A stretch of 34,510 nucleotides of DNA from Candidatus Nanoarchaeia archaeon (GCA_035290625.1 DATDTY010000001.1:1-34510), one strand, 5' to 3'; counted from the first letter of the stretch, positions 17,851-33,187 are shown. Notes: generated by a model from the letters alone, not told the origin. Program-made: numbers and translations.

Positions 17851-17867
17851 GCTGCAGATAGGCATCC

Positions 17868-18064
17868 GGCTTCCCTGAAAATGTAGTTGCCGTCAATTCG
17901 TGAGGCTCTTATACGCTGAGACGCCAAACCGACAAGGGGGTCGTCCCACCCGGGGAATGTCGGTCCTCCAGAAGATCTTTGCAGCCGAGCCGGTGGCTAG
18001 CGAGCAAGCTCGCATTGCTCGCTTGCAAGCCACAGCAACCTCGAAGAGATTTTCAGGGAAGCCC
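17868..18064 (+). mobile_element. Structured intergenic element, copy E1
   Basis: 15-bp perfect IR GGCTTCCCTGAAAAT (17868-82 / 18049-63); 9-bp direct repeat TAGGCATCC (17859-67, 18065-73); shared core with the other copies. Confidence 0.85.
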
Positions 18065-18079
18065 TAGGCATCCTAAACC

Positions 18080-18087
18080 TTTAAATA
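18080..18087 (+). promoter_or_regulatory. Archaeal BRE/TATA box
   Basis: AAACCTTTAAATA about 27-30 nt before the ATGs at 18107/18110. Confidence 0.6.
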
Positions 18088-18106
18088 GAATATCTTTCTG
18101 TGATTA

Positions 18107-19750
18107 ATGATGAACACGAAGGTTCGACCAAAACTTCTGCTGCTCTGCGCATTCTTGATTCTTGCCCTGTTTGCAGCACAGATTACCTTTCCCGAAGAAA
18201 CATTTGTTGGGAAAGCCGCAGATCTGCCTGAATCAGATGCTTGTGAAGAGGCTGGCATCTTATTTTGCGGACTGATGGTCAGCAGGGATATTGTAAGCTC
18301 GAAGTTCACATCCATGGAACTCAGAGGGATTATTGACGAGACTACTTTGTATCCGCCTCTTGACAACTGGGAAACCGGCGATTGGAATGAGGACGACTAT
18401 ACTCAGGAAATACAGTACCCTGGACCTGACTTCCGCCTTGAGTTTGCTGAAGATCCAGGAGTTCGCGCATGCGGCCTTGAGGATGTTGTTGAAGAATTAA
18501 GAGAAGTAGCAGAAGAGATAGCATTTTTCAGGCTTTTGAAGGAAGGAGGGTATTATGATTCAAGGATCCATCATGTGGATAGAAGGTATCTCAATGAAGA
18601 GGAGCTTCCTGAGTTTGATCCAACATATACAGGGCGCCTTGCAGCAGATTTTTTGGAGCAATGCTCGGAGAATCCGGGGCTGGGAGGCCTGCATCCTCAG
18701 GAAGGAGGGACATTTGCAGACATCTATGGGCGGATTCCAACAGGAAGCTGCGCAATCATTGTTAACCGGGTCATAGACTTGCAGCTTTCAATACTTGAAA
18801 GGAAAAAGGAGGATATCCTGCGGTCTCATGTTCGGGAGGGAAGGTATGCTCCATTCACAGCGGAAGATTTTAATGAAGGGACTGAGGTCAGTGATACAGA
18901 CATATTTGAAGGGGCTAAGAGATTCGCCAGGAATTTTGACAGCGTATTTGATAGATGCAGAGTTTTCTTTAATAGATATAACGGAGATGCATCTGAGGAT
19001 ATCCTCTTTTCTCTCAAGCAAAGGTATTACGGGTATGCGTGTTCTGCATCAAAATCTGTATTTAGGCAATTTAACCCCCCTGAGGACGCACCACCAGTGG
19101 AAAGCCCAATTTATGGAAACGAACAGGGCATTTGTTTAGGCATATCCTCCACAGTCAACAGATTTTTCAGTGATGGAAAGTTCGTGGGAGGCGACTGTAA
19201 GATATCTCAGAGAGAATATGCTGACATGATAAGAGGTGAAGGATGCTTTGAAGTTCCCTGCCAGACCTTTAGCGAATTATTAACAGCAGTATACCCAAGA
19301 GGGAGCCATTCACCCCTCTCAGAGACGACGAGATTCCATCGTGAGCAGAATCAGGAACTGAAGGAATGTATGGCGAGAGAGGGGACCCTAGAAAGGAGAG
19401 GCACGCTGTTTGCGAGATGGTTTGAGTATACTAATCCACAATCTCTGCTGCAAATCGAGGAGCAGGAAATAAATTATTTTGATCTTCTCGATCGAATACT
19501 CGATGGCGAAACGCCTATGATATCAATTGTCGGCACTGCTTTGGGGCCCTCCCATTCAATTTTTGCGCATTCCTGTGATGATGTAGGCCTTATTGAGGTA
19601 TTTGATCCTAACTTCCCCGAAGATACACGTTATCTCAGATACACAGGATCAGGCACGTTTATGGAGCCAACGTTCTTGGAACCCGTCATTATAAGACATG
19701 TTGAGTCTCCTTACACCCCCAGAAACATCTGCCATGAGGAATCTCCTTGA
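18107..19750 (+). CDS. Exported acidic Cys-rich protein with probable C-terminal papain-like peptidase domain
   Basis: Signal/TM segment at N-terminus; GICLGIS (Cys), SHSIFA (His), VFDPN (Asp). Confidence 0.65.
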   Translation: MMNTKVRPKLLLLCAFLILALFAAQITFPEETFVGKAADLPESDACEEAGILFCGLMVSRDIVSSKFTSMELRGIIDETTLYPPLDNWETGDWNEDDYTQEIQYPGPDFRLEFAEDPGVRACGLEDVVEELREVAEEIAFFRLLKEGGYYDSRIHHVDRRYLNEEELPEFDPTYTGRLAADFLEQCSENPGLGGLHPQEGGTFADIYGRIPTGSCAIIVNRVIDLQLSILERKKEDILRSHVREGRYAPFTAEDFNEGTEVSDTDIFEGAKRFARNFDSVFDRCRVFFNRYNGDASEDILFSLKQRYYGYACSASKSVFRQFNPPEDAPPVESPIYGNEQGICLGISSTVNRFFSDGKFVGGDCKISQREYADMIRGEGCFEVPCQTFSELLTAVYPRGSHSPLSETTRFHREQNQELKECMAREGTLERRGTLFARWFEYTNPQSLLQIEEQEINYFDLLDRILDGETPMISIVGTALGPSHSIFAHSCDDVGLIEVFDPNFPEDTRYLRYTGSGTFMEPTFLEPVIIRHVESPYTPRNICHEESP

Positions 19751-19854
19751 TCTGCCACTCGTGTAAGACGTGAAGGCCTCAAACTCTGAACAGAAGATGA
19801 TTATAGTGAAGGTTAGGATGAAGGGCACAAGTGAACCGCTTACCCTGAACTGCG

Positions 19855-20538
19855 TCACTCCACTGTCTTTGACGTGTCAACCTCTATGCCTTCCTTTGTG
19901 ATGTCGAAAGGAAACGTCTTGTCAGGAATTTTTGTTCCCCTCATCTTGATCACTTCGAGCGCCCTGTTTCTTACTCCTTTCTGCTTCCTGTGGTAAAGAA
20001 AGATGATCCCATCCACCTCAAACTCCATCGCTGCAGTCACGCTTTCATCAGTCACATTTCCCTGGCTTGTAAGCACAGCAGTGCAGTCCCATTTGTTGAT
20101 CAGCTCGAATAACGCAAGCGCAGCCTCCTTCTTTGTAAGCTCATCCTCATACAGCAGCACAAATGATGTTATTGAATCAATAACCAGCCTCTTCGCCTTC
20201 ATCTTTTCGATGATATGCTCAATAATGCCCCCCCCTTCAACCAGCACCTTCTTTACCTGCTCAGGAGTATACTCAAGGAATGAGAACTTCCCTTCTTTCT
20301 CGTATTTCGCCAGATCCCAGCCAAATTCCAGCATCGACTCGTATACCTTTTCCTTCTTCTCTTCAAAAGTGATGTAGATCCCAGATTCTCCCTTCTTAAA
20401 TCCCTCTACAAGGAATTGGATGGCAAAGATGCTTTTTCCCGAGCCAGCGGTTCCCGCAACAAGATTGATAGAATTCTTCTGAAACCCGCCTTGCAGCAGC
20501 GTATCAAGCTTGGAAATTCCTGAAGAGACCCGCGGCAT
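19855..20538 (-). CDS. KaiC/RAD55-like RecA-superfamily ATPase (single domain)
   Basis: SSGISKLDTLLQGG, GTAGSGKS, YITFEE, RLVIDS, VIKMRG. Confidence 0.92.
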   Translation of the reverse strand: MPRVSSGISKLDTLLQGGFQKNSINLVAGTAGSGKSIFAIQFLVEGFKKGESGIYITFEEKKEKVYESMLEFGWDLAKYEKEGKFSFLEYTPEQVKKVLVEGGGIIEHIIEKMKAKRLVIDSITSFVLLYEDELTKKEAALALFELINKWDCTAVLTSQGNVTDESVTAAMEFEVDGIIFLYHRKQKGVRNRALEVIKMRGTKIPDKTFPFDITKEGIEVDTSKTVE

Positions 20539-20541
20539 TGC

Positions 20542-21264
20542 CTACCCCTCTTTCTTAAAGTCCTTCTCGAACAAAGAAAAGGGCAGTTGGTCATGGAATA
20601 TCTTGACGCCTTTTCCATCTATGGTAAAGGGGTAGATGTCAAGCATATGGTCCTGGTTCCGCATTTTTGCTATCGTAAGGATGCGCTCAAATGACGAGGA
20701 TCTCCGCACCTTTGAGAGGAGGATCAGCCCATCGAAGAGAAAGTCCTCAGGCTCATACTCAAGCTCATCAAGATGCGTAAAGGGCTTCTCTGCTGTGGCC
20801 ACAAGCGTGACACTCGCTTCTTTCATTCGCAGGATAAAGTCAAGCACTTCCTTCCTGTAGTCCATCTCCCCTGCCACATGGATATAGCCGAAGAGGGTCA
20901 AAGAATCCAGCACGACGCGTTTGATCCGCTTTTTCTTGATGATCTCAAGAGGAGTGACAATCGACATCAGCTTTTTTGACGAGATTGACTGTTTGATGAA
21001 GGTAAGCAGGCCTTTCCGTTCCAGATCATCCAGGCCGGGGTATATCTCCCTGCCCGTCTCGCGGATCGAATCAACTTCTTCCTCTGAGGTTATGTACAGC
21101 CCGGGCTCCCCAAGCTTGGCTCCAGCAATCATGAACTGCATCGTCATCATTGTTTTTCCGGTTCCAGGCGCGCCAGTCACAAGGACACAGTTGCCCTGAA
21201 GAATTCCGCCATAGAGAATCTCATCCAGCCCCGGAATGCCTGTTTTTATCCTTGCATGTTGCAT
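20542..21264 (-). CDS. KaiC/RAD55-like RecA-superfamily ATPase (single domain)
   Basis: KTGIPGLDEILYGG, GAPGTGKT, RVVLDS, IAKMR; start reassigned to 21264. Confidence 0.92.
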   Translation of the reverse strand: MQHARIKTGIPGLDEILYGGILQGNCVLVTGAPGTGKTMMTMQFMIAGAKLGEPGLYITSEEEVDSIRETGREIYPGLDDLERKGLLTFIKQSISSKKLMSIVTPLEIIKKKRIKRVVLDSLTLFGYIHVAGEMDYRKEVLDFILRMKEASVTLVATAEKPFTHLDELEYEPEDFLFDGLILLSKVRRSSSFERILTIAKMRNQDHMLDIYPFTIDGKGVKIFHDQLPFSLFEKDFKKEG

Positions 21265-21298
21265 AGACCAGCTACCAGCACAACTGATATAAAAAGAT

Positions 21299-21661
21299 TT
21301 AGGTCTTTGAGAGCCTGTCAGGCCCATTGAAGAACACAGCAAAAAACCCGGCAGCAAGGGCAAGATCCCTCACCATCACATCATTATATCCAAGATTGAT
21401 GGCAATAAAGAGCACATGGATAAAGGCAATGAAAGCTGCAACCCTCACAATAAATCCTGACAGGAGCAGAAGGCTCAAAGCAATTTCAAATACTCCATTT
21501 GCAGCGACAAGCAGGGTTGTGTTTGCAACAGCATCAGCCCAGCCAGGAACATAGGAAGCCCAGTTGTCCGGAGACGCCACCTGCCACACCCCAAACCAGA
21601 GCAGAAAGATTCCCAGGCTTATCCTGAGGATTACTGGCCCATAGGACGAATCAATCTTCAT
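21299..21661 (-). CDS. DoxX family membrane protein
   Basis: LRISLGIFLLWFG...GVFEI...RDLAL; start chosen by TATA spacing (21682 and 21673 also possible). Confidence 0.8.
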   Translation of the reverse strand: MKIDSSYGPVILRISLGIFLLWFGVWQVASPDNWASYVPGWADAVANTTLLVAANGVFEIALSLLLLSGFIVRVAAFIAFIHVLFIAINLGYNDVMVRDLALAAGFFAVFFNGPDRLSKT

Positions 21662-21704
21662 CCAACCACTCATATTCCTCATCTTTTTAAGGGTTTTTAT
21701 TTTG

Positions 21705-21883
21705 ATGGAGGTTGGTGCGAAATTGAAGGTTGCCATCATTTTGTGAGCAACATCGCTAATGAATAAGCATCGACATCGAGGGGGATGCCCCATGGAGGAC
21801 GAATGTCGATTATCACAGAGATATATGCCATGTGCGAACTCGATGGCAACCCGAGCATTGCGAGAATTTCGCACCAACCCCAT
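21705..21883 (+). mobile_element. Structured intergenic element, copy E2
   Basis: IR GGTTGGTGCGAAATT (21710-24 / 21865-79); inner stem GGTTGCCATC/GATGGCAACC; ATCGACAT...ATGTCGAT arm; flanking direct repeat unclear. Confidence 0.8.
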
Positions 21884-21927
21884 TTTTACACATAAACTTT
21901 TAAACCTGTTGCAGTTTCAGGTACACC

Positions 21928-22218
21928 ATGAATATCATCACTGATGAAAAGCTTGAAAAGTATTTTTCCATCACGCAAAGAGCGCTTCTGAAGGCAAAGG
22001 CAGTAAAAAAGAAAGCAGAGATTGACTTTGAAGAGAAGGCGCTTGAATTCCTTGACATGGCCCAGCGCTACTTTGACGATGCAAAACATTTTGAGAAGAA
22101 AGGGGATATCGTGACTTCCTTTGCCTGCCTGAACTATGCCCACGGCTGGCTTGATGCAGGAGCGCGGCTTGGCCTCTTTGATGTTGGAGGAGACTCAACA
22201 CTTTTTACTGTGGATTAG
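21928..22218 (+). CDS. DUF357 domain protein
   Basis: MAQRYFDDAKHF...FACLNYAHGWLDAGARLGLF. Confidence 0.9.
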   Translation: MNIITDEKLEKYFSITQRALLKAKAVKKKAEIDFEEKALEFLDMAQRYFDDAKHFEKKGDIVTSFACLNYAHGWLDAGARLGLFDVGGDSTLFTVD

Positions 22219-22682
22219 CGCACTCTCTTCACTATGCCCAGCACATCAGCGGCATGGCCTTTCGGCTCCACACTCCTCCAATGCTCTGCAATCCTTCCCT
22301 GAGGATCAATAAGCACAGTGCTTCTGATAACTCCTTCAATCTCCTTGCCGTACATCATCTTCTTCCCCCAGGCGCCATACTGCTTAATCACTCTTTTGTC
22401 AGGATCGCTTAAGAGCCTTACTGTTAAGCCGTGCTTTTCAATGAAGTTACAATGGCTTTTCCCAGAATCCGGGCTGATTCCAAGCACAACTGCATCGCTC
22501 TTGTCAAACTCTTTGCTAAGCCCCGAGAACTCGATTGCCTCGATGGTGCACCCCGGCGTGTCGTCTTTTGGATAGAAATAAACAACAACAAATCTCCCTT
22601 TCAGGTCTTTCAGGCAGACATCTTTCTCATCCTGATCCCTGAGGCAAAAATCAGGCGCTTTCATCCCTTTGGTGATCTCCAT
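22215..22682 (-). CDS. bcp: Peroxiredoxin, BCP/PrxQ type
   Basis: YFYPKDDTPGCTIEA, LGISPDS, RSTVLID. Confidence 0.93.
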   Translation of the reverse strand: MEITKGMKAPDFCLRDQDEKDVCLKDLKGRFVVVYFYPKDDTPGCTIEAIEFSGLSKEFDKSDAVVLGISPDSGKSHCNFIEKHGLTVRLLSDPDKRVIKQYGAWGKKMMYGKEIEGVIRSTVLIDPQGRIAEHWRSVEPKGHAADVLGIVKRVR

Positions 22683-22785
22683 GGCGAACAGTCAGAAACA
22701 GGATATATTTCCATGTTGTGATTTTTGCTGATTCCAAGAGCACAGATTCACAAACTTTATAAACGCCATCACAAGCCTTCACACT

Positions 22786-23493
22786 ATGAAACTCGAAGGT
22801 AAGTTTGAAAGTATAAGCATTGGGCTTGTTGGTGTGCTGGTTCTCCTCGTTGTTGCAAACCAGGCCCAGATATCGAGCATTTCAGGATCTACAACAGGAT
22901 CCAGCATAGGACTGGGTTCAGGCTTGAGGCTCGGCAGAGGCACTGCTGATCTTGCTTCAGTGGACATCAATGAGATCAGGTCAACAGCGCAGGGCATTGC
23001 AACGCTTTTCCCTGTAGAAAAATTATCAACAGCAGAAGGGGCAATGCAAGCCATGTTTCCGACAGGAACTCCAGAGTATGGAGATGCGATGGGAGTGACA
23101 TTTGATGATCCTATCGGAGCCTTGACAAAGCTCTCAAACGCCTATCCTGCATTGGACCAACAGGCAAGAGGAAATCCAGAGGTTTGGCAACGATACATTA
23201 ATCTTGCTTCAGAGCCAAGAGGCGTAAGCTGCGAGTTCTGCTGCGGTGTCGGAGCAGCAGGCATCTCAAAAGATGGCCGCTCACTCTGCGGCTGCCAGCA
23301 TGCTCCTGCTCTTTTAAGCGTCACGCTCTGGCTGCTTATGAACACAGACTACAATGACGCGCAGATACTGCAGGAAGTATACCGCTGGAAAACCCTTTTC
23401 TTCCCGAGGAATATGATTGAGCTTGCAGGCAAGGTTGCAGGCGGAGACAGTTCAGTGTTAAATGATTTGCCAGGAATGGTAGGAGGATGTTAG
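22786..23493 (+). CDS. Membrane-anchored Cys-rich putative metal-binding protein ending MVGGC
   Basis: N-terminal TM; CEFCC and CGCQH motifs; C-terminus LNDLPGMVGGC. Confidence 0.75.
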   Translation: MKLEGKFESISIGLVGVLVLLVVANQAQISSISGSTTGSSIGLGSGLRLGRGTADLASVDINEIRSTAQGIATLFPVEKLSTAEGAMQAMFPTGTPEYGDAMGVTFDDPIGALTKLSNAYPALDQQARGNPEVWQRYINLASEPRGVSCEFCCGVGAAGISKDGRSLCGCQHAPALLSVTLWLLMNTDYNDAQILQEVYRWKTLFFPRNMIELAGKVAGGDSSVLNDLPGMVGGC

Positions 23494-23494
23494 C

Positions 23495-23713
23495 ATGAAA
23501 AAGGAAGTATTGATAACCATTGTCTTGGCTGTCTTGGTATTGGTATCTTTGGTTCAGGCTCTCCAGCTGAGAAGCCTTAAAAGCCAGATTGAGACAGGTA
23601 GCTTTTCTGTGCAGACAAAGGCTGCTGCTACGCCAGTGGCGTCAGGAAGCGCCGGAAGCCCAGCATTGCCGCAGAGCCTGGATAACCTTCCGCAGATGGT
23701 CGGAGGATGTTAA
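23495..23713 (+). CDS. Small membrane-anchored protein ending MVGGC
   Basis: N-terminal TM, low-complexity linker, LDNLPQMVGGC. Confidence 0.75.
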   Translation: MKKEVLITIVLAVLVLVSLVQALQLRSLKSQIETGSFSVQTKAAATPVASGSAGSPALPQSLDNLPQMVGGC

Positions 23714-23786
23714 TCTTTTGTGAAGGGGCAGATTCTTTGTTCTTTTCTGCTTCTCATCTCTCAAGCATTGCTGCATTTGGGGATGG

Positions 23787-24248
23787 ATGATGAATGGTTT
23801 AATTCTTGGGATGTTATCTATGGTCATGCTTCAGGCTTGTGCTCAGGCCAGTGAGGATAACCCTGATATGCTGGCCATCAACCTAATGGACTATAAGACC
23901 TTAGCATTCCATATGCATCCTCATCTTGAGATTGAGATTCTTGGGGAGCAGTATGTCATCCCAGCAAATATAGGCGCATCGCGCCAGGCGATTCGCGTGA
24001 TCCACACCCATGAGCCTGACGGAACACTGCATGTTGAGTCTCCTTATCCTCATCAGTTTGTACTGGCAGACTTTTTTACAATCTGGGGAGAACGTTTTGA
24101 TAAAACGTGTATCTTTAATTACTGCATTGATGAAGAGCATGAACTCCTTGTGTTTGTCAATGGAGGGCAGAGCGATTTGTATGAGAATACCCCCCTCAGG
24201 GAAGACGATGAGATAAAGATAGTTTATAGGAAGTCTATAGGAGAGTAA
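23787..24248 (+). CDS. Exported His-motif putative metal-binding protein
   Basis: HMHPHL, IHTHEPDGTLHVES, LADFFTIWG. Confidence 0.75.
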   Translation: MMNGLILGMLSMVMLQACAQASEDNPDMLAINLMDYKTLAFHMHPHLEIEILGEQYVIPANIGASRQAIRVIHTHEPDGTLHVESPYPHQFVLADFFTIWGERFDKTCIFNYCIDEEHELLVFVNGGQSDLYENTPLREDDEIKIVYRKSIGE

Positions 24249-24275
24249 AGAACAAGAACCAAGAAGGGAATAGAC

Positions 24276-26788: not shown

Positions 26789-27592
26789 ATGCCAAAAGAC
26801 TGGAGCGACGAGTTTGTGCACCACTGGAATTATTTCATAGGTCCTGCCAGAGCATCTCCTTCTGACTTAAGGTTCATAAAAAAGAAGATTCTCGAGAAAG
26901 ACAGGGATGCAAAGGTGCTTGTTTTGGGAGCAACACCTGGATACAGGAACCTGTGCGGAGAGTTGGACATTCCTGTAACACTTATTGACTTCAAACGATA
27001 CAATTATGAGTACCTCTCAGATGAAGTCAAGAATAAACCAAAAGAGAGGTTTGTGGAAGGTAATTGGATGGATACAGTGCTGCCTGAGAAGTTTGATATA
27101 ATCCTCGCAGACAATGTTCTGAATGTTGTTCCAACTAAAGAGAATATACGGATTGTCCTTAAAAACGTAGCCAGTATGCTAAAGAAAGATGGGCTGTTCA
27201 TGCCGAGAACTTATGTAAGGGGAAAAAATGAAAGGATTGATCCTGAAAAGGTCATTAAGGAGTACAGGAAAAAGCGGGACGGAAGTGACCTTTACACATG
27301 GCTCTCAAGGGATTTATATCTGGCTGCATATGATTTTAAAGAGGATGTTGTCAGATTTAAGGATATCTGGAAGGTTATAAAGAAGATGCATGACAATGGC
27401 CTTTTTACTGATGAAGAGCTCAAAGAGTGGAGGAACAACTCGTTTGAGAATAGGGAATTCCATTTTATAATCCCTGTAAAAGAAGAGATTGAGGAGATTC
27501 TTTCAGAATTCTTCAATATTAAGCAGGTGTTCTGCGGAACCGAAGAATATATACACGAAACACTTCCGTTGTATGTACTTACATTGAAATGA
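26789..27592 (+). CDS. Class I SAM-dependent methyltransferase
   Basis: VLVLGATPG, LIDF, FDIILAD, MLKKDGLF. Confidence 0.82.
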   Translation: MPKDWSDEFVHHWNYFIGPARASPSDLRFIKKKILEKDRDAKVLVLGATPGYRNLCGELDIPVTLIDFKRYNYEYLSDEVKNKPKERFVEGNWMDTVLPEKFDIILADNVLNVVPTKENIRIVLKNVASMLKKDGLFMPRTYVRGKNERIDPEKVIKEYRKKRDGSDLYTWLSRDLYLAAYDFKEDVVRFKDIWKVIKKMHDNGLFTDEELKEWRNNSFENREFHFIIPVKEEIEEILSEFFNIKQVFCGTEEYIHETLPLYVLTLK

Positions 27593-27634
27593 ACCTAATA
27601 GCCCAGGTGGCAGAGGCAGAGTTGTTCCGGCTCA

Positions 27635-27859
27635 CTTTATGTTAAGCATGATCTTCGTGAAAAAGGTATTGGAACAAAGCCGTTGCAGTATGTTGAGAAA
27701 TATGCTAAAAAGAAAGGATTGAAAGAATTGAAATTAGGTTCAACTATAACCGCTTTAGATTTTTACAGAAATAGAGGTTACAAAACCATAAAGAAAAAAT
27801 ATTATGTGGTCCTTCAAAGTGTTAGAATACCTTGCATCCTGATGTCAAAAAGATTGTAA
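27635..27859 (+). pseudogene. GNAT acetyltransferase C-terminal fragment (not in the ORF track)
   Basis: LYVKHDLREKGIGTKPLQYVEKYAKKKG...ALDFYRNRGY; no start codon; in-frame TAG at 27599. Confidence 0.75.
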
Positions 27860-27891
27860 AGGCACCAAAACTCAATTGAAAGTAACAACCC

Positions 27892-28482
27892 TTAGATAAA
27901 CTCCTCTTTCTTCCGCTTTCTAAGCAGCAAGCCTATACCAAAGGCTGCTGCAAGCGCTGCAAGCAGGATAAGGGGGCCGGTAAGAGAGCCTTGATCAGCA
28001 GCGTTCTGTCTGCACTTGTAGAATCTTGTGTCACAAGCTCCGTTCTTACAGTCGCTGTCCTCCTCGCATTCTATCTTTGAAAGAGGCAGGACAGTCATGC
28101 TTCTCTTTGCATCAGGGCAGATCATTGCCGGATCATCAATCTTGTCTGTTATGATAACTGCTTCAATGCAGGTAAGGTAGTCAAATGTTCTCACACCTGC
28201 AATGGGGGGCCTGATTTTCCATGGAAACACTGCCTTGCCGGTTGCATTAGGCCCAAGCTGGAGGTTGGGATGGTAGGAAGCAAATATTGTCTTGGTCTCT
28301 GCCTCCTGGAGAAGGACAGAAGCGACATGCGTTGTAGCATTGATATTATTCCATATCAGGAAGGTTATGTTTGCTTCAGTCCCTTCCCTGCAGTGGGGAT
28401 CGCTGCACTGTATAGTCGAGGAAAAAGCCGCAGATACACTCTGGCTTGCAAGAACCAATAAAACGATGGCAAGGAAACGCAT
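27892..28482 (-). CDS. Exported protein with C-terminal membrane anchor
   Basis: Signal peptide, Cys-rich CEEDSDC...C...C, TM followed by RKRKK. Confidence 0.8.
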   Translation of the reverse strand: MRFLAIVLLVLASQSVSAAFSSTIQCSDPHCREGTEANITFLIWNNINATTHVASVLLQEAETKTIFASYHPNLQLGPNATGKAVFPWKIRPPIAGVRTFDYLTCIEAVIITDKIDDPAMICPDAKRSMTVLPLSKIECEEDSDCKNGACDTRFYKCRQNAADQGSLTGPLILLAALAAAFGIGLLLRKRKKEEFI

Positions 28483-28539
28483 TCCAGCGGAGTTAACAGA
28501 GGGGATATTTAAGTCTTTTGAACCTGCCTGAAATCAATC

Positions 28540-28701
28540 GGCGCCATTGAAAGGCAATGCAATGCCTCATCATGAGCCATTGAAGCAAGGTAGGAGCAGC
28601 GACAAAGGGGTTGCTCCACACGGGAAATGTCGCCTAGCAGCAGAATCTGTGATTGGCGAATCTGGCATTGCCGAGCGAAGCGAGAGCTTTTCAATGGCGC
28701 C
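28540..28701 (+). mobile_element. Structured intergenic element, copy E3
   Basis: IR GGCGCCATTGAAA (28540-52 / 28689-701); GGCAATGC/GCATTGCC; GCGACA...TGTCGC; CAATCG at 28535-40 and 28705-10. Confidence 0.8.
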
Positions 28702-28710
28702 CGCCAATCG

Positions 28711-28910
28711 GCTCAGTAGAAAGTCAGCCGGCATCAGGCTCGCTTGCGCTTGTATTCGTGTATGCTGACACCCCCGAAGGTGCTAAAAAGAGCTACGCTC
28801 TTTTGGCACACCAAAACGCCCGACGGCGTTTTGATTGGGGCAACCCTCTGTCAGCAGCGGTTATGATTGCGAAGAAGCTCGCAGAAAGGATGCCGGACTT
28901 TCTACAGAGC
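28711..28910 (-). mobile_element. Structured intergenic element, copy E4 (inverted, with apical insert)
   Basis: IR GCTC(A/T)GTAGAAAGT; 11-bp direct repeat CCCGCCAATCG (28700-10, 28911-21); closely similar to E6. Confidence 0.88.
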
Positions 28911-28968
28911 CCCGCCAATCGTTAAATTTAAATATTCAGAAAAGCCCAGCCCCTTCGGGGATGGAAAG

Positions 28969-29097
28969 ATGAAAAAGCAGAAATCAGCCCAAGTTCCAGA
29001 AACTGAGGAGAGGAAGTGTCCAGAGTGCGGAAGCAGGGATATTGGCACTGATGAGACTGAGATGTACTGCAAAAAGTGCGGCTATGTCTTTGAGTGA
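28969..29097 (+). CDS. Small TFIIB-type zinc-ribbon protein (42 aa)
   Basis: CPECGS...MYCKKCGYV; TATA at 28927. Confidence 0.75.
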   Translation: MKKQKSAQVPETEERKCPECGSRDIGTDETEMYCKKCGYVFE

Positions 29098-29218
29098 TGG
29101 CTGCTTCTTGATGGATAAATTCTACAAAACCTGCCCTAGTATACTTTTTTCACCATCAGCCCGCACAAAATTTATAAAGGATGATTGCTCAGAATAAGTA
29201 AGGGGGGTGGGTAAGATT

Positions 29219-29344
29219 ATGAACCAATCTAAAATCCATGACATCGTTGTGGTTGAAGATGGTTCGCTTATCCATAAGCAGGTCGAGCAAAGGCATGGGT
29301 TGCTCTTTATGCGAATAAAGAAGCGGCATGTCTTTGTGACCTGA
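29219..29344 (+). CDS. Possible small protein (41 aa, MNQSKIHDIVVVEDG...), not in the ORF track
   Basis: TTTATAAA at 29171 and G-rich SD-like GGGGGTG upstream of the ATG. Confidence 0.4.
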   Translation: MNQSKIHDIVVVEDGSLIHKQVEQRHGLLFMRIKKRHVFVT

Positions 29345-29466
29345 CTTGTTCTGCAGTTAAGAGTGGCTAAGAGTGGCTCTTGGGAGAACAGCACCTGTTT
29401 GTAAGCTTCCTTACAGAATAATCTACTGCCCCAAGATATGCCAAAGAAAGATTCTAAGATGAGATC

Positions 29467-29709
29467 CTAATGATACCGTAGAACACGTATCTCTTCATGC
29501 TGTTTCTGCTCTAAAGGCAGGTTTGCCTGCACTGCAACTTCAAAGGGATCTCCTTTATGATGCAGCAGAACAAGGTTTGCCTGCGTCTCAAAATAGACAA
29601 AATGCCTTTGCCATCCGTGCTTGTCAGGCTGGTAGAAGAGCTTTTCAGTATTCAGCTGCTCCGCAAGCCTAATGAACTCTTTCATTCCGTTGATTTGCAG
29701 AATAGGCAT
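29467..29709 (-). CDS. Hypothetical protein (80 aa)
   Basis: ORF with TATATAAA 30 nt upstream. Confidence 0.65.
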   Translation of the reverse strand: MPILQINGMKEFIRLAEQLNTEKLFYQPDKHGWQRHFVYFETQANLVLLHHKGDPFEVAVQANLPLEQKQHEEIRVLRYH

Positions 29710-29753
29710 AGCCCTCTTTGGGCGTGCATCATTTATATAGTTTCTTGTTTTAG

Positions 29754-29967
29754 GCAGCGTTCAAAATTTGGGTTGCCGCCTGCTTGTGAGCAACCTACCT
29801 AGAGTAGGCGCATCGACAAGGGAGTTGCCCCAGCCAAAACGCCATCGGGCGTTTTGGTGTGCCAAAAGAGCGTAGCTCTTTTTAGCACCTTCGGGACATG
29901 TCGATATACACAGATATGCAGAGATTGCGAACTTGGCGGCAACCGCTGAATGAGATTTTGAACACAG
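29754..29967 (+). mobile_element. Structured intergenic element, copy E5 (with apical insert)
   Basis: IR GTTCAAAAT (29759-67 / 29955-63); GGTTGCCGCC/GGCGGCAACC; 10-bp direct repeat CTTGTTTTAG (29744-53, 29968-77). Confidence 0.85.
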
Positions 29968-30141
29968 CTTGTTTTAGAGCCGAGATCATGATTACGAATT
30001 TCAAAATGAACCTCAGATTGCCTATAAGCACAAAATTTTCAGGTTGCAAAGCCCAGGGTATCAGCTTTTATCCTGATTTCCAAAAAGTTTATATACTAAC
30101 CACAAGTAGTTCACAGTAAATCCTAATACCGAGGTGAAAAA

Positions 30142-30288
30142 ATGGTGCAAGGGAGATGTATGAAATGCAAGAAGCAGGTTGATATCAAGAACGGTAAGGA
30201 GACGACCATGAAGAATGGGATGAAGGCAGTAAAGGGAGAGTGCCCATCTTGCGGCACAAAGGTTTTCAGGATTCTTGGAAAGGCTTAG
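30142..30288 (+). CDS. DUF5679-like small basic zinc-binding protein (48 aa), not in the ORF track
   Basis: MVQGRCMKCKKQVDIKNGKETTMKNGMKAVKGECPSCGTKVFRILGKA; SD GAGGTGA at 30131. Confidence 0.88.
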   Translation: MVQGRCMKCKKQVDIKNGKETTMKNGMKAVKGECPSCGTKVFRILGKA

Positions 30289-30295
30289 GCCTTTT

Positions 30296-31060
30296 ATGAT
30301 TGACTGCCATTGCCACCTTGACCACCCTCTCTTTGATAAGGACAGAGACCAGGTGGTTGAGGCAGCAAAAACATCTGGGATTTCTGTTATCATTACCAAT
30401 GGCATAGACCCTGGAACAAATAGGAAATCCCTGGAGCTTGCCAGGAGGTATAGCATTGTAAAAGCTGGCCTTGGCGTCTATCCCAGAAGCGCAATCAAGC
30501 ATGAGACTGAGCAAGAGGGAAAAAAGTACACCTCCTTTGATATTGGTGAGGAGCTTGGGTTTATCACAGATCATAAGAAGGAGGTTATTGCTATAGGGGA
30601 GGTTGGCCTGGATGGTGTCCGGGGCATCGATACTCCCCAAAAAAAGGACTTTGAACTCATGATTGAGCTGGCAGAAAAGCTCAAAAAACCCATCATTGTG
30701 CATTCGCGCAAGGCTGAAGCTGAAGTGCTTGCCTTGCTTGAGACCTCAAAGCTAAAAGTAATCCTGCACGCCTTTCATGGCAAAAGGAGGCTCGTCCAGA
30801 AGGCAATTGACAATGGCTGGTATTTCTCAGTCTCTACCCATATAGCCAGGAGCCAGGAGATGCAGTACATAGCTAAGGAAGCTCCCTTGTCAAAGCTGTT
30901 TCCAGAGACAGATGCTCCGTTCCTCAGCCCATTTCCAGGAAAGCGCAATGAGCCTGCTTTTGTTATTGAAGCAATTAAGAAGATTGCCGAAATAAAAGGC
31001 CTGGATATGGAGGAAACATCCAAGAATATCTGGAAAAATTACCAGAAGGTGTTTGTGTAG
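30296..31060 (+). CDS. tatD: TatD family hydrolase/DNase
   Basis: IDCHCHL, AIGEVGLD, IVHSRKAE, ILHAF, ETDAPFL. Confidence 0.93.
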   Translation: MIDCHCHLDHPLFDKDRDQVVEAAKTSGISVIITNGIDPGTNRKSLELARRYSIVKAGLGVYPRSAIKHETEQEGKKYTSFDIGEELGFITDHKKEVIAIGEVGLDGVRGIDTPQKKDFELMIELAEKLKKPIIVHSRKAEAEVLALLETSKLKVILHAFHGKRRLVQKAIDNGWYFSVSTHIARSQEMQYIAKEAPLSKLFPETDAPFLSPFPGKRNEPAFVIEAIKKIAEIKGLDMEETSKNIWKNYQKVFV

Positions 31061-31103
31061 GGAGCAAGCAACCTTAATATAGAAGGCTTCATTCCCCCTC
31101 TTT

Positions 31104-31931
31104 ATGCACAGGAGAGCTTTTCTGAGCCTAACCCTCACAGCAGCGGCTGCTGCCTGCACCAAGATGCAGGGATTAGAAATGACCATTGCTGATGCATCGA
31201 AAGACCACAGCAGAGCATTGCAGCTTGGCCGCCAGTGGATGGCTGAAGGGAAATTCGGCGAAGCCAGGGCTGCACTAGAGGTTGGTGTGCAGGGATATAC
31301 GCTCCGGCAAGACTTGAACCTGAATCTCTACATGTATAACGAGGGCCAATTTCAGCCCCTAACCCAAGAACAAAAGGACGTGCTCATGCAGTTCTATGAT
31401 GCCTTGGGCCATGCCTGCGCAGCAGCGCAGCAATTCTCCATTGCTTTGGGGTATTTCCAGCAGACAGTCTTCATCGATCCCAGCAACCCGGAGCATTTTA
31501 TGGCATTTGCAAAAACCAGCGCTGAGATATTTAATGATGAAGCAGCAGAGGGATTAAGGCTTCCTTATGAAACCCTCTTAAAGCGTCATGTTCGAGTCAT
31601 CCGATACCCTCCAATGGTTGTGATGAATGCAAGCGTAGCTGCATATTTAGAATGTGACTCCCGGCCTGGCCAATGGCAACTTGCGAATCAGGTATTCCAG
31701 GAATACACGAGATATCTAAAGGATGTTGCCATGGAGCTGTCACGAAGGGACATAGCATGTAGCATCCAAATCCCTAATGAAGAGAGCAACCAGGAAAAAT
31801 GGGATATCGCAAGGCAGATGTACCAGCAAGACCCTTATTTTACAGTCCGATATCAGAATTATCTCCCAGGGATGATCCATTTTGCAATCCCCCTGCAAGA
31901 AAAAAGGCCTAATACTTCAAACAGCCTGTAA
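31104..31931 (+). CDS. TPR-like helical protein with Tat/lipoprotein-like signal
   Basis: MHRRAFLSLTLTAAAAAC; ALGHAC...ALGYFQQTVFIDPSN. Confidence 0.7.
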   Translation: MHRRAFLSLTLTAAAAACTKMQGLEMTIADASKDHSRALQLGRQWMAEGKFGEARAALEVGVQGYTLRQDLNLNLYMYNEGQFQPLTQEQKDVLMQFYDALGHACAAAQQFSIALGYFQQTVFIDPSNPEHFMAFAKTSAEIFNDEAAEGLRLPYETLLKRHVRVIRYPPMVVMNASVAAYLECDSRPGQWQLANQVFQEYTRYLKDVAMELSRRDIACSIQIPNEESNQEKWDIARQMYQQDPYFTVRYQNYLPGMIHFAIPLQEKRPNTSNSL

Positions 31932-31947
31932 GATGCCAGGAATAACT

Positions 31948-32144
31948 GGCTTCCCTGAAAATGGCGTTGCCGTCAATCTGCGAGGCTCTTGACCTTAAAG
32001 ACTGAAAACCGACAAGGGAGTTGCCCCCATGGAGGAATGTCGGTCCCCCCGTCATATGCGCGGCCGAACCGACGTGCTCCGAAGGAGCGCCCGGAAATGT
32101 TTGGCATTTCCGACGGCAACCTCGAAGAGATTTTCAGGGAAGCC
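31948..32144 (+). mobile_element. Structured intergenic element, copy E7
   Basis: Same 15-bp IR as E1 (31948-62 / 32130-44); 8-bp direct repeat GGAATAAC (31939-46, 32145-52). Confidence 0.88.
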
Positions 32145-32189
32145 GGAATAACGCAAAGCCTTTTATACCTGTTTTGCCTATAAGCCTCT

Positions 32190-32498
32190 ATGAAACTGAC
32201 TCTGGACACCAAAGAGGACTCGCATGAGCATTTGAGGCACGTGATTGCGATGCTTCAGAGTATTATCGGAGGTAGTGAGCAGGACGTCCATGAACCTGGA
32301 CAGCAGCCTGTAAGTCAGGACCAAGGCTTTGTCAATCTGTTTGGTGATGCTGCAATCAGCCCATCGCCTCCTGAGCAGAAAAAGGATTCCGGCCTTGATG
32401 TTGACCCTGCAAAGATCCAGGACATCCTGCAGAAGGCAAGCTTAGAAAAGGCGCGCCTGTCTGAGACCAAAGAGTTCAAGATGGAGGAATATCTTTAG
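32190..32498 (+). CDS. Hypothetical protein (102 aa)
   Basis: MKLTLDTKEDSHE...; TTTTATA at 32161. Confidence 0.75.
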   Translation: MKLTLDTKEDSHEHLRHVIAMLQSIIGGSEQDVHEPGQQPVSQDQGFVNLFGDAAISPSPPEQKKDSGLDVDPAKIQDILQKASLEKARLSETKEFKMEEYL

Positions 32499-32546
32499 GA
32501 TGCATTTCATCTAACGCTTCTCGCCTTGCAGAACGAATTTAGAAAT

Positions 32547-32993
32547 CTAAAATCTCCACACCCTCTTCCCGTTTCTATGTATCGCTCTCACCCTGTGGAT
32601 AGGAATAAAAATCTCCTTGCCACGCTCATGGATATGGATGATATTCTTCTCGATGCGCCGTATCTGGGCTGCCTTGAACTCTATCTCCTTTTTTCTCACC
32701 TTATCCAGATACCTGATCCTGAACTCGTTCCTTTGCGGATGCGCCTGAACAGAATTGAGAATCTTCAGAGTGCCCTGCTCCAATCCTCCCAAAGGATCAA
32801 ACTCCTTGAGGATAATCCCTGAGAACGTAAGTATCGCCAAGCCAATAAACAGGCTGACAAAAGGCTCTTCAAGTATAGGCAACGCTCCAAACCCTTCCCA
32901 TATCCCACGCCAGAAGAAGATGATTCCTGTCGCTCCAAGAAGTGACCAGAGAAAATGCTTGTCTGACTCACGCAACTGATAGATACTACTCAC
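32547..32993 (-). CDS. Membrane protein with C-terminal MJ1316/DUF504-like domain
   Basis: Two TMs; IRYLDKV...FIPIHRVRAIHRNGKRVW resembles the IPxHR motif. Confidence 0.7.
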   Translation of the reverse strand: MSSIYQLRESDKHFLWSLLGATGIIFFWRGIWEGFGALPILEEPFVSLFIGLAILTFSGIILKEFDPLGGLEQGTLKILNSVQAHPQRNEFRIRYLDKVRKKEIEFKAAQIRRIEKNIIHIHERGKEIFIPIHRVRAIHRNGKRVWRF

Positions 32994-33044
32994 CTCTTTT
33001 GGATGCTTTCAGGCATTCGGGTATAAATACGTTATGGTTTTGTG

Positions 33045-33187
33045 GCTCAGTAGCAAGTCCGGCATCATTCCTGCGAGCTTCTTCAGCTCCATAAGCAGTG
33101 CTGACAGAGGGTAGGCCCCTTCGGGGGTGTCAGCATACACGAATACAGGCGCAAGCGAGCCTGATGCCGGCTGACTTGCTACTGAGC
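33045..33187 (+). mobile_element. Structured intergenic element, copy E6 (shortest, no insert)
   Basis: 14-bp IR GCTCAGTAGCAAGT; CCGGCATCA/TGATGCCGG; GCTGACA...TGTCAGC; direct repeat GGTTTTG (33036-42, 33189-95). Confidence 0.88.

What the first reader, a model, noticed from the sequence alone, without database searches (positions are those of the whole stretch)
17868..33187. Family of at least 7 intergenic elements conserved in fold rather than in terminal sequence
Seen: E1 17868-18064, E2 21705-21883, E3 28540-28701, E4 28711-28910 (minus), E5 29754-29967, E7 31948-32144 and E6 33045-33187 share one nested architecture. It runs: outer 9-15 bp inverted repeat (five largely dissimilar sequence types), an 8-10 bp second stem (GTTGCC/GGCAAC, GGCAATGC/GCATTGCC or CCGGCATC/GATGCCGG), a GA/GA motif, a variable ~20-nt segment, and an apical arm YGACA-R-rich-GGG..TTGC-CCC..GG..TGTCR. 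Stems change sequence but keep pairing. Known: classical MITEs conserve TIR sequence because the transposase reads it. Inference: this family is recognised as a folded single strand (RNA or ssDNA). It is dense here (7 copies in 15 kb), and I do not recognise it as any named ncRNA or repeat family.
Basis: partly seen in the sequence, partly recalled or inferred. Interest (0 to 1): 0.92.

Follow-up and report, generated by a model that had tools for sequence, protein, structure and literature searches.

The report
Hairpin-shaped mini-transposons hugging archaeal promoters
The seven look-alike intergenic elements are copies of a small non-coding jumping gene (a MITE) that litters this tiny archaeon's genome, lands just upstream of gene promoters and keeps an unusually well-preserved hairpin fold; it is a known kind of element, not a new RNA gene.

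Summary
Observation confirmed. All 7 elements exist, share one branched hairpin architecture and belong to a genome-wide family: 166 nhmmer hits, and at least 147 covariance-model hits in 1.37 Mb. Stem covariation is strong (86% of cells paired, against 67% shuffled and 35-42% slid).

The elements are MITEs.
- They carry 9-bp target-site duplications: 46/114 copies match at 8/9 or better, against 0.09% in a control; 5 of the 7 here do.
- Their ends share a consensus (GGCT....TGAAAAT-like) resembling the inverted repeats of ~960-bp IS5-family insertion sequences. One intact copy lies in this genome (C49). One metagenomic clade's repeat is within 1-2 bases of the commonest MITE type.

So the ends are most likely read as sequence by DDE transposases.

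The conserved core is absent from 73 IS loci. It folds equally well on both strands and shows no clear G·T-over-A·C excess. It sits in either orientation about 45 nt upstream of start codons, at the edge of TATA boxes. This argues against a strand-specific RNA.

Unexplained: a tandem G·A pair kept in 92/100 copies, and GAA/GGA-triloop mini-hairpins. There is no Rfam match.

This scan found the same family before, on other pieces of this genome and in other genomes.

The parts
17868..18064 (+). E1, MITE copy (197 bp), end type GGCTTCCCTGAAAAT
   Evidence: Perfect 9-bp duplication TAGGCATCC at 17859-17867 and 18065-18073. R1 match. Carries a 51-nt extra hairpin module at 17986-18036 that recurs at 84-96% identity in 9 other places. 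Ends 42 nt before the ATG at 18107.
21708..21881 (+). E2, MITE copy (174 bp), end type GAGGTTGGTGCGAAATT
   Evidence: R1 110.7 bits. Flanks match 6/9. Sister copies on C68 and C15 have 9/9 and 8/9 duplications. Lies between divergent starts: 46 nt to the ATG at 21928 and 34 nt to the DoxX start at 21673 (coordinates, which used 21709 and printed 35).
28540..28701 (+). E3, MITE copy (162 bp), end type GGCGCCATTGAAA
   Evidence: R1 118.6 bits. Flanks match only 5/9. Its right flank is the duplicated target of E4, which inserted right beside it.
28710..28911 (-). E4, MITE copy (202 bp), end type GGCTC(A/T)GTAGAAAGTC
   Evidence: Perfect 9-bp duplication CCGCCAATC at 28701-28709 and 28912-28920. 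It equals E6 plus a 53-nt double-hairpin insert at 28784-28836 in the apical loop, which is shared at 94% with E5 (pairs I1-I3).
29754..29968 (+). E5, MITE copy (215 bp), end type GC(A/T)G(C/T)GTTCAAAAT
   Evidence: Perfect 9-bp duplication TTGTTTTAG at 29745-29753 and 29969-29977. R1 105.5 bits. Its left end lies 44 nt from the start of the minus-strand gene at 29709.
31948..32144 (+). E7, MITE copy (197 bp), same end type as E1
   Evidence: Flanks GGAATAACT / GGAATAACG match 8/9. R1 match. Ends 45 nt before the ATG at 32190.
33045..33187 (+). E6, shortest MITE copy (143 bp), end type GCTCAGTAGCAAGTC
   Evidence: Flanks GGTTTTGTG / GGTTTTGAG match 8/9 with a 1-nt offset. Sub-parts: P1 33045-33059 with 33173-33187; P2 33060-33066 with 33163-33169; P3 with tandem G.A 33073-33080 with 33153-33160; P4 33100-33106 with 33128-33134; P5 33116-33126. 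RNA z-score -5.67.

Best explanation
The elements are non-autonomous miniature transposons (MITEs) of an IS5-family lineage that makes 9-bp target duplications, like the IS903 group.

Shown:
- Each copy is 143-215 bp, has no open reading frame and is bounded by ~15-bp inverted repeats.
- The repeats follow a shared consensus, GG(C)(T)nnnn(T)GAAA(A)(T).
- Copies are flanked by a 9-bp duplication of the target.
- The family has more than 140 copies in this 1.37-Mb genome and occurs patchily in other families of the same archaeal order.
- Autonomous ~960-bp insertion sequences have related repeats and the same 9-bp duplication, and encode a ~284-aa DDE transposase. They occur in this genome (intact copy on contig C49) and in groundwater metagenomes.

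Inferred:
- These transposases bind the terminal repeats as double-stranded sequence and move the MITEs in trans.
- The several end 'types' are sub-families matched to different transposase clades.

Shown: insertion is aimed at the upstream edge of archaeal promoters. An A/T-rich TATA-like box starts about 15-18 nt outside an element end. The start codon of the gene pointing away lies about 43-47 nt from the end. The element can lie in either orientation.

Shown: the branched hairpin core is not IS-derived, is shared by all sub-families and is kept by compensatory changes.

My best guess for why the fold is kept (inferred, about even odds among the options): it works at the DNA level in a strand-symmetric way. 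One version is a hairpin or cruciform that brings the two ends together or is tolerated next to promoters. Another is that pairing is renewed by repair within the hairpin. I do not think it acts as a strand-specific RNA.

The confidence given is for the MITE / DDE-transposase identity, not for the role of the fold.
For: Target duplications. In 46 of 114 full copies the two 9-bp flanks agree at 8 or 9 positions, against 0.09% of mismatched-pair controls. In the window: E1, E4 and E5 9/9; E7 and E6 8/9.

End consensus.

Parent IS.
- L034 (G015) is 957 bp, with repeat GGCTCGTTTGCAAGTT and a perfect duplication GGAGAACTA.
- Of 60 metagenomic IS copies examined, 50 gave repeat pairs, 933-1011 bp long, and 10 of those 50 had duplications of 8/9 or better.
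- The transposase matches PF01609 at E 3.8e-9. It matches NCBIfam IS5-family model NF033579 over 24-288 of 289 positions at E 3.6e-28, which is below that model's cut-off.
- The own genome has an intact 284-aa gene inside a 967-bp IS at C49:19040-20006, plus fragments at five contig ends.

MITE ends against IS ends. 24 of 114 MITE repeats are within 2 of 16 bases of an IS repeat, and 62 of 114 within 5. Only 4 of 5000 random 16-mers come within 5. The clade-2 IS repeat GGCTCTGTAGAAAGTT is the commonest MITE end.

Promoter edge.
- An A/T-rich 10-mer at +15..+24 occurs in 104 of 226 flanks, against 16-35 of 226 further out.
- 88 of 113 elements have one on at least one side.
- 42 of 95 distances to a start codon fall in 40-49 nt.
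- IS flanks show the same trend more weakly: 56 of 95 against 38 of 95.

No strand specificity.
- G.T 180 against A.C 144, of 3732 cells.
- Equal z-scores on both strands.
- Orientation relative to tandem genes: 29 same, 20 opposite, p 0.25.
- Neighbouring copies: 61 same, 50 opposite.

Print. A census paper names 'a Woesearchaea genome' among the archaeal genomes richest in MITEs, at 105 per Mb (PMC11602168, passage read). IS903-group elements are ~1050 bp with 9-bp repeats (PMC3281130, table rows read).
Against: - Co-occurrence is weak. Of 12 MITE-bearing relatives only 3 (G015, G030, G038) have a detectable IS5-type transposase. It was found in 4 of the 28 relatives without MITEs. The high-copy genomes G026 (at least 37 copies) and G035 (at least 26) show none. 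These are draft assemblies, and in G000 most IS copies sit at contig ends.
- For end types A (E1, E7), B (E2) and C (E3), no IS with a closely matching repeat was found. The best are about 5-6 of 16 bases away.
- The IS on C49 itself has no target duplication.
- No empty-site or presence/absence evidence of recent movement was obtained. Nearest-neighbour identity is mostly 85-95%.
- The MITE model alone does not explain three things. The core is absent from all 73 IS5-type loci searched. The core is more conserved than the repeat middle. An asymmetric tandem G.A is kept in 92 of 100 copies.
- No transposition has been demonstrated.
Confidence: 0.85

Rival explanations
1. A functional structured RNA rides inside the transposon ends. 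In this reading the core (P2-P6) is a non-coding RNA, or a cis-acting RNA motif that stabilises or terminates transcripts. It would be read from the strand carrying the tandem G.A, the GAA/GGA triloop and the UUCG-like loop.
For: - Strong covariation in P2-P4.
- Tandem G.A kept in 92/100 copies.
- A local mini-hairpin with a GAA or GGA loop in 48/100 copies, with covarying 2-4-bp stems.
- Extra hairpins inserted only in loops, as in expansion segments of RNAs.
- The core is absent from the IS.
- E1 and E7 begin 17-18 nt after the stop codon of a co-directional gene.
Against: - G.T is barely commoner than A.C: 180 against 144 overall, and 48 against 38 in P3-P5. From general knowledge, not tested here, functional RNAs usually show a large excess.
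- Both strands fold equally well.
- Elements lie upstream of promoters, and in either orientation relative to neighbouring genes (29 against 20).
- No Rfam family matches.
- With 4-bp stems, GNA triloops (35) are no commoner than TNC triloops (32).
Confidence: 0.1
2. The element is recognised and moved as a folded single strand. The mover would be a Y1/HUH transposase of the IS200/IS605 or REP-RAYT kind acting on ssDNA hairpins, or a reverse transcriptase acting on an RNA copy.
For: - The genome does encode Y1 transposases: 6 matches, 3 of them full length. It also encodes one reverse transcriptase.
- Y1 genes occur in 5 of the 12 MITE-bearing relatives, against 5 of the 28 without.
- The GCGAAGC-type mini-hairpin is extraordinarily stable as DNA (Tm 76.5 C), and the related r(GCGAAAGC) is far less stable as RNA (Tm 39.0 C) (PMC13037366, passages read).
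- The fold is conserved.
Against: - Fixed 9-bp target duplications and terminal inverted repeats with a sequence consensus are the signature of DDE cut-and-paste or copy-paste. From general knowledge, IS200/IS605 and REP elements have neither.
- The ends resemble those of DDE insertion sequences with the same duplication length and the same promoter-edge sites.
- The Y1 genes are solitary IS200-like units unrelated in sequence to the elements.
- The co-occurrence is not significant by my own Fisher estimate (about p 0.1) from the counts. G035 has at least 26 copies and no Y1 match.
Confidence: 0.04
3. The family is kept by the host as a promoter-edge device. It could be an insulator or bidirectional terminator that shields BRE/TATA promoters from read-through, or a binding platform for a chromatin or transcription factor. 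Transposition would then be only the means by which it spreads.
For: - The position is fixed: the start codon lies 43-47 nt from the element end in a large share of copies, and a TATA-like box lies at +15..+24.
- The core is conserved across sub-families and across families of the order.
- Copy ages are spread widely, which suggests long retention.
Against: - The autonomous IS shows the same site preference, so the position is explained by target choice.
- The distribution among relatives is patchy (12 of 40), which is typical of selfish elements.
- There is no T-run terminator longer than T4 in the consensus.
- No expression data exist.
Confidence: 0.08

Closest known systems
MITEs derived from IS5-family insertion sequences, IS903 group (9-bp duplication)
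   Same: Short and non-coding, with ~15-bp terminal inverted repeats starting GG and a 9-bp target duplication. Many copies. A ~1-kb single-ORF DDE parent has related repeats. IS903-group elements are listed as ~1050 bp with 9-bp repeats in PMC3281130.
   Different: The interior is not a deletion derivative of the parent: 0 of 73 IS loci match the core. The core is more conserved than the middle of the repeats. The transposase is only a sub-threshold match to the IS5 model (98.9 against 140 bits). The parent is shorter, at 933-1011 bp. Targets are promoter edges.
Correia elements of Neisseria and similar bacterial rod-like MITEs (recalled, not tested)
   Same: Small IS-related inverted-repeat elements, abundant near genes, that fold into long hairpins.
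   Different: Bacterial, with a TA duplication and a different IS family. Correia transcripts are known to be processed and can carry promoters. Nothing of the kind is shown here.
REP/BIME elements with RAYT, and IS200/IS605 with their palindromic derivatives (recalled properties)
   Same: Repeats conserved as hairpins and read as folded ssDNA by Y1/HUH enzymes, with mosaic combinations of hairpin modules. Y1 genes are present in this genome.
   Different: Those elements have no terminal inverted repeats and no target duplication. These have both.
Promoter-targeted integration such as yeast Ty3 at Pol III promoters (recalled analogy)
   Same: Insertion at a fixed distance from a TBP-bound promoter, which avoids gene disruption.
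   Different: Ty3 is a retrotransposon guided by transcription factors. Here a DDE element is involved, and it is unknown whether TBP/TFB or plain A/T-rich sequence is what the enzyme senses.
DNA mini-hairpins d(GCGAAGC)/GNA triloops (PMC13037366; PMC3201870, abstract start seen in a listing only)
   Same: The small hairpin between P2 and P1 reads GCGAAGC, CCGAAGG, GCGGAGC and variants with covarying stems. The review names such sequences as stable DNA mini-hairpins at ssDNA priming sites and a phage promoter.
   Different: The match is by sequence pattern only. No folding or function was tested. With longer stems, GNA loops are not enriched over their complement.

Membership tests
MITE (miniature inverted-repeat transposable element) | Terminal inverted repeats | tested here: met
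   Inverted ends of ~14-16 bp in the 7 copies. They share a consensus over 114 copies.
MITE | Target-site duplication of fixed length | tested here: met
   9 bp. 46/114 copies agree at 8/9 or better, against 0.09% of the control. 5 of the 7 in the window do.
MITE | Small, non-coding, multi-copy | tested here: met
   143-215 bp here. 166 nhmmer hits. 147 model matches among 150 scored candidates, out of 512 first-look candidates. No element-long ORF conserved.
MITE | An autonomous element with matching ends that can supply the transposase | tested here: inconclusive
   Met for the GGCTC(A/T)GTAGAAAGT type, which is 1-2 of 16 bases from the clade-2 IS repeat, found in metagenomes only. An intact related IS is in this genome. 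For types A, B and C the best IS repeat is about 5-6 bases away. No mobilisation was tested.
IS5 family, IS903-like group (parent) | DDE transposase of the DDE_Tnp_1 / IS5 type | tested here: inconclusive
   PF01609 at E 3.8e-9 for the G015 copy, but no Pfam hit at 1e-3 for L036. NF033579 matches full length at E 1e-23 to 1e-28, below the curated cut-off.
IS5 family, IS903-like group (parent) | About 1 kb, single ORF, 9-bp duplication | tested here: met
   933-1011 bp with one 282-285-aa ORF. 9/9 duplications in L034, L050, L059, L075, L084, L095, L099 and L102. Compare PMC3281130 Table 2.
Any Rfam RNA family | Match at the family's gathering score | tested here: not met
   0 matches in the whole window. 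At E<=1 there are two weak hits, neither inside an element.
Kink-turn (L7Ae-binding) motif | 3-nt bulge directly followed by G.A, A.G pairs (definition recalled) | tested here: not met
   The tandem G.A sits inside a continuous helix, with two Watson-Crick pairs between it and the internal loop (alignments; columns).
IS200/IS605-type or REP/RAYT elements | No terminal inverted repeats and no target duplication; sub-terminal hairpins read by a Y1 enzyme (recalled) | tested here: not met
   The elements have inverted ends and 9-bp duplications. The Y1 genes of the genome are separate IS200-like units.

The most novel reading that the evidence does not exclude
The IS-independent core is a purpose-built folded single-strand module. 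It has a tandem sheared G.A, GAA/GGA-triloop mini-hairpins, and a G-run/C-run/G-run apex. In this reading it is read as a fold by the transposase or by a host factor: as extruded or replicating ssDNA, or as RNA from one strand. This would explain why sub-families with different ends, served by different transposase clades, all keep the same core. IS5-type transposition in these archaea would then include a structure-recognition step, or the element would be a domesticated promoter-edge device.
Probability: 0.15. Interest if true: 0.7.

Novelty: new member of a known kind. Interest (0 to 1): 0.33.

Why it matters
For annotation: at least 140 structured repeats per 1.4 Mb (about 2% of a very small genome) should be labelled as MITEs. 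They should not be taken for RNA genes, riboswitch-like leaders or CRISPR-like repeats. They also break assemblies, since many contigs here end inside one.

For biology, the family is a clean natural marker of archaeal promoters. Element ends sit about 45 nt from start codons, which implies leaderless mRNAs with a TATA box near -27. It also shows a transposon lineage that avoids harm by landing at promoter edges.

The open point worth an experiment is why a passenger core unrelated to the parent IS is kept, fold and tandem G.A included, across sub-families. If the fold is required for movement, that would be unusual for a DDE element.

Tried and rejected
- **RNA evidence.** No RNA holder was listed among 20 public runs that hold the stretch, so nothing can be said on expression.
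- **Presence/absence of copies.** Contigs of four DNA runs were laid on 17500-33500. They break at the repeats, and no joint skips exactly one element. No empty sites were seen, which is uninformative.
- **Parent IS in the own genome by end pattern.** A scan for pairs of MITE-type ends 320-4000 bp apart with a duplication found none.
- **Parent IS by Pfam in the own genome.** PF01609 found only an unrelated 516-aa IS4-like gene on C61. That search missed the real IS on C49, which tblastn and a profile found later. PF01609 in 5 MITE-rich relatives found the IS only in G015.
- **IS interior as the source of the core.** The model search with filters off gave a best E of 0.12, and 0 of 68 loci matched. 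Rejected.
- **Kink-turn reading of the GA/GA motif.** Rejected on geometry.
- **General excess of GNA triloops as a strand marker.** Rejected: 35 GNA against 32 TNC.
- **Orientation bias.** None relative to genes or to neighbouring copies.
- **Phylogenetic co-occurrence with DDE or Y1 genes.** Both are weak.
- **Solved structures.** No PDB relative of the transposase by sequence.
- **First MFE folds.** Elements cut to 150 nt were misleading and were redone full length.

Full report
**What is there.** The seven elements are at the coordinates given. They align over their whole length, with a common core and variable inserts. Refined ends are:
- E1 17868-18064
- E2 21708-21881
- E3 28540-28701
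- E4 28710-28911 (minus strand)
- E5 29754-29968
- E7 31948-32144
- E6 33045-33187

An nhmmer profile of the seven finds 166 places in the 1.37-Mb, 84-contig genome. A covariance model (R1) built on 33 diverse copies matches 147 of the 150 candidates it scored, out of 512 first-look candidates, so 147 is a lower bound. Both methods find exactly seven copies in the window. Many contigs end inside a copy. Rfam has no match at gathering score in the window. At E<=1 there are only two weak hits, outside the elements. There are no tRNAs.

**The fold.** It has these parts:
- an outer inverted repeat (P1);
- a second stem (P2);
- a helix containing a tandem G.A/A.G (P3);
- a variable stretch of about 20 nt;
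- an apical arm CGACA...TGTCG (P4) enclosing a G-run, a C-run and a second G-run (P5);
- in most sub-families, a tiny hairpin between P2 and P1 on the 3' side (P6).

All seven fold much better than dinucleotide shuffles: z -3.5 to -8.7 with 100 shuffles each. This holds equally on both strands and with both RNA and DNA parameters.

On 100 copies aligned to R1 from 801 kb (window plus contigs C2-C45):
- 86.3% of 3732 pair cells are standard pairs, against 67.4% in shuffles (0 of 500 reach it) and 35.5-42.4% when partners are slid by 1-3 columns.
- 37 of 40 pairs show changes on both sides.
- 710 cells have double changes, against 223 expected.

The alignment was fitted to the model and the copies are kin, so these figures lean towards the structure. 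The gap to the slid controls is nonetheless large. R-scape was not available.

**They are transposons with target duplications.** E1, E4 and E5 are bracketed by perfect 9-bp direct repeats (TAGGCATCC, CCGCCAATC, TTGTTTTAG). E7 and E6 match 8/9, E2 6/9 and E3 5/9.

Genome-wide, I called ends from the inverted repeat alone. In 46 of 114 full copies the two 9-bp flanks then agree at 8 or 9 positions. Only 0.09% agree that well when left and right flanks of different copies are paired.

The ends are not unrelated either. Base 1 is G in 77 of 114 copies, base 2 is G in 80, bases 11-13 are A in 74-91, and 39 begin GGCT. What varies is mainly bases 5-9, with mean column identity 0.54. This compares with 0.79 for bases 1-4 and 12-17, and 0.79-0.81 for P3 and the apex. 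It is not correct for its tips.

**The parent.**
- A Pfam search of the own genome found only an unrelated IS4-like gene on C61.
- In G015, a same-order relative with at least 20 copies, a DDE_Tnp_1 match led to a 957-bp insertion sequence. It has 16-bp repeats GGCTCGTTTGCAAGTT and a perfect 9-bp duplication. It has one 282-codon frame, broken there by one in-frame TGA.
- With that protein I found four full relatives in species genomes and 68 loci in metagenomes.
- Of 60 copies examined, 50 gave repeat pairs, 933-1011 bp long, and ten of those had duplications of 8/9 or better.
- tblastn then showed that this genome does hold the IS. There is an intact 967-bp copy at C49:19040-20006 with a 284-aa gene, plus ends or gene fragments at the tips of contigs C25, C41, C42, C50 and C74.
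- The protein matches NCBIfam's IS5-family model over nearly its full length (E 3.6e-28), but below the curated cut-off. One copy matches PF01609. L036 gives no Pfam hit at 1e-3.
- IS903-group IS5 elements are listed in print as about 1050 bp with 9-bp repeats (PMC3281130, Table 2 rows read).

**Ends of MITEs against ends of IS.** The IS repeats themselves come in types:
- ...TTGCAAGTT
- ...GTTCAAAGTT
- ...GTCCTAAGTT
- in a clade only 40% identical in protein, GGCTCTGTAGAAAGTT

The last of these is the end of the commonest MITE type here (E4, E6 and about 26 others). In all, 24 of 114 MITE ends are within 2 of 16 bases of an IS end and 62 within 5, against 4 of 5000 random 16-mers within 5.

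The diversity of ends therefore mirrors the diversity of autonomous elements. That is what one expects if each transposase reads its own repeat as sequence. For types A (E1, E7), B (E2) and C (E3), no closely matching IS turned up.

**The core is not IS sequence.** R1 finds nothing in five IS5-type loci with filters off (best E 0.12). It finds nothing in the 68 metagenomic loci, nor at the C49 IS. The IS has its own covarying hairpin just before the start codon, and it is unrelated to the core. So the core is a passenger shared by sub-families whose ends differ. This is the part of the finding that remains interesting.

**Which strand, if any?**
- G.T pairs (180) are barely commoner than A.C (144) among 3732 cells. 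In the best-aligned helices P3-P5 the count is 48 against 38.
- Both strands fold alike.
- Among copies between co-directional genes, 29 point with the genes and 20 against (p 0.25).
- Neighbouring copies share orientation 61 times and differ 50 times.

These results argue against an RNA selected on one strand. They fit a constraint that acts on the DNA palindrome.

Against that, two asymmetric features are conserved. The tandem G.A/A.G in P3 is present in 92 of 100 copies. The P6 mini-hairpin has a GAA (41) or GGA (7) triloop in 100 copies, and its short stems covary: GC/GC, AC/GT, TGC/GCA, CTC/GAG and others. GCGAAGC-type hairpins are extraordinarily stable as DNA (Tm 76.5 C) and much less so as RNA, judged from the related r(GCGAAAGC) at Tm 39.0 C (PMC13037366, passages read). 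With stems of 4 bp or more, GNA triloops (35) are no commoner than TNC triloops (32), so this is not a general rule of the element. The tandem G.A is not a kink-turn, because two Watson-Crick pairs separate it from the internal loop.

**Where they land.** Reading outward from either end, A/T content peaks at +15 to +24.
- 104 of 226 flanks have at least 8 A/T in that 10-mer. The figure is 16-35 of 226 in windows further out, and 8.7% of random genome 10-mers.
- The box is on the 5' side only in 43 elements, on the 3' side only in 29, on both sides in 16 and on neither in 25, of 113.
- With simple ORF calls, the distance from an element end to the start codon of the gene pointing away falls in 40-49 nt in 42 of 95 cases, with many at 44-46. 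In the window the distances are 42, 46, 34, 57, 57, 44, 45, 51 and 46 nt. These come; the third is recomputed with E2 starting at 21708, where one search used 21709 and printed 35.
- Divergent gene pairs are over-represented around copies: 23 of 83, against 153 of 919 of all neighbouring pairs.
- IS flanks show the same box more weakly: 56 of 95, against 38 of 95 further out. The C49 copy has one on each side.

The 9-bp target thus lies just upstream of the BRE/TATA region of promoters of apparently leaderless genes. The neighbours are ordinary archaeal genes: KaiC-like ATPases, DUF357, a TFIIB-type zinc ribbon, TatD, MJ1316, DoxX and archease. Whether the enzyme senses TBP/TFB-bent DNA or just A/T-rich flanks is open. 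I recall, but did not check, that IS903 has a flank-dependent target preference.

**Distribution and age.** R1 matches 12 of 40 genomes of the same order, each from a different family. Counts are high in G015 (at least 20), G026 (at least 37) and G035 (at least 26).

The IS5-type transposase was found in 7 of the 40, and only 3 of those carry MITEs. G026 and G035 have none detectable. Y1/HUH transposases occur in 10 of 40, of which 5 carry MITEs. Neither association is convincing. Drafts often lose IS copies, as this genome nearly did.

Nearest-neighbour identity among 107 copies is mostly 85-95%, and six copies reach 97.5% or more while having different flanks. So the family is old, with some fairly recent movement.

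A published census already names 'a Woesearchaea genome' among the archaeal genomes densest in MITEs, at 105 per Mb (PMC11602168, passage read). Its supplements were not opened. My literature searches found no description of this family's fold or of promoter-edge targeting. Earlier agents of this scan reached the same MITE / IS5-IS903 / TATA-box reading on other pieces of this genome and on other genomes. I re-derived each of those points here. I add four things: the intact IS in this genome, the absence of the core from the IS, the strand tests, and the conserved G.A and triloop features.

**Mosaic inserts.** E4 equals E6 plus a 53-nt double hairpin in the apical loop (28784-28836). The same insert sits at 94% identity in E5, whose backbone is a different type, and in other copies. 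A 51-nt stretch of E1 (17986-18036) holding a hairpin recurs at 84-96% identity in nine other places. In the four copies of the E4/E6 end type that I inspected, it sits in the same loop, between P3 and P2 on the 3' side. Either sub-families recombine or small hairpin modules are inserted at loops. I did not resolve which.

**Verdict.** The interpretation over-reached. These are MITEs of an IS5-family lineage, an ordinary kind of element. They have an unusually well-kept, IS-independent hairpin core and a precise preference for promoter edges. The role of the fold is unknown. My leading guess is a strand-symmetric DNA-level constraint. I give a structure-reading step about 15%.

Noticed in passing
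G000 contig C49:19040-20006 (locus L169:341-1307): An intact 967-bp IS5-type insertion sequence with a 284-aa transposase gene lies in the window's own genome. The Pfam-based own-genome search missed it. Gene or end fragments sit at the tips of C25, C41, C42, C50 and C74, so several copies are collapsed in the assembly. This copy has no target duplication, and it has a TATA-like box outside each end.
   Followed up: yes
window 28784-28836 (in E4), 29819-29895 (in E5), 17986-18036 (in E1): Extra hairpin modules are inserted in loops of the scaffold and shared at 84-97% identity between sub-families whose backbones differ. This gives a mosaic build reminiscent of bacterial BIMEs. It is not resolved whether recombination or module insertion produces it.
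   Followed up: partly
G000 C15:2072-2290 and C30:15139-15357 (loci L170, L171): A second, unrelated ~219-bp element carries exactly the terminal repeats of the C49 IS (first ~19-21 bases at each end) but lacks the structured core. The C30 copy has an 8/9 duplication with a 1-nt offset. It looks like a direct MITE derivative of that IS.
   Followed up: partly
G000 C49:16170-16517, C46:22216-22563, C18:70-417; fragments on C72, C39, C41: IS200-like solitary Y1/HUH transposase genes: 6 Pfam matches, 3 of them full length. They are unrelated in sequence to the MITE family.
   Followed up: partly
G000 C68:38030-38677: One reverse-transcriptase (RVT_1) gene with a 375-aa open frame. Its type (group II intron, retron or DGR) was not examined.
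   Followed up: no
G000 C61:271-1821 (L001): A 516-aa DDE_Tnp_1 transposase of an IS4-like element, with its own ~20-bp inverted repeats unlike the MITE ends.
   Followed up: partly
L034:1126-1181, L036 about 1138-1185, L038 about 1135-1186, L169 (minus strand) about 1268-1216: Each IS copy has a long G/C-rich hairpin ending just before the transposase start codon. Its sequence differs between clades while its pairing is kept. It is probably a translation or transcription control of the transposase.
   Followed up: no
genome-wide; window examples at 18064->18107, 32144->32190, 29754->29709: Start codons sit a near-constant 43-47 nt from element ends, with a TATA-like box at +15..+24. This implies that most of these genes are leaderless, with the TATA box about 27 nt upstream of the start.
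   Followed up: partly
L034:1576-1578 (G015:C16): The G015 copy of the IS has a single in-frame TGA in an otherwise full-length transposase frame. It could be a fresh nonsense mutation or a recoding site; this was not examined.
   Followed up: no
window 27600-27860: An A/T-rich stretch without a long ORF reads, by eye only, like the tail of an acetyltransferase-type gene. It is possibly a gene remnant of foreign origin.
   Followed up: no
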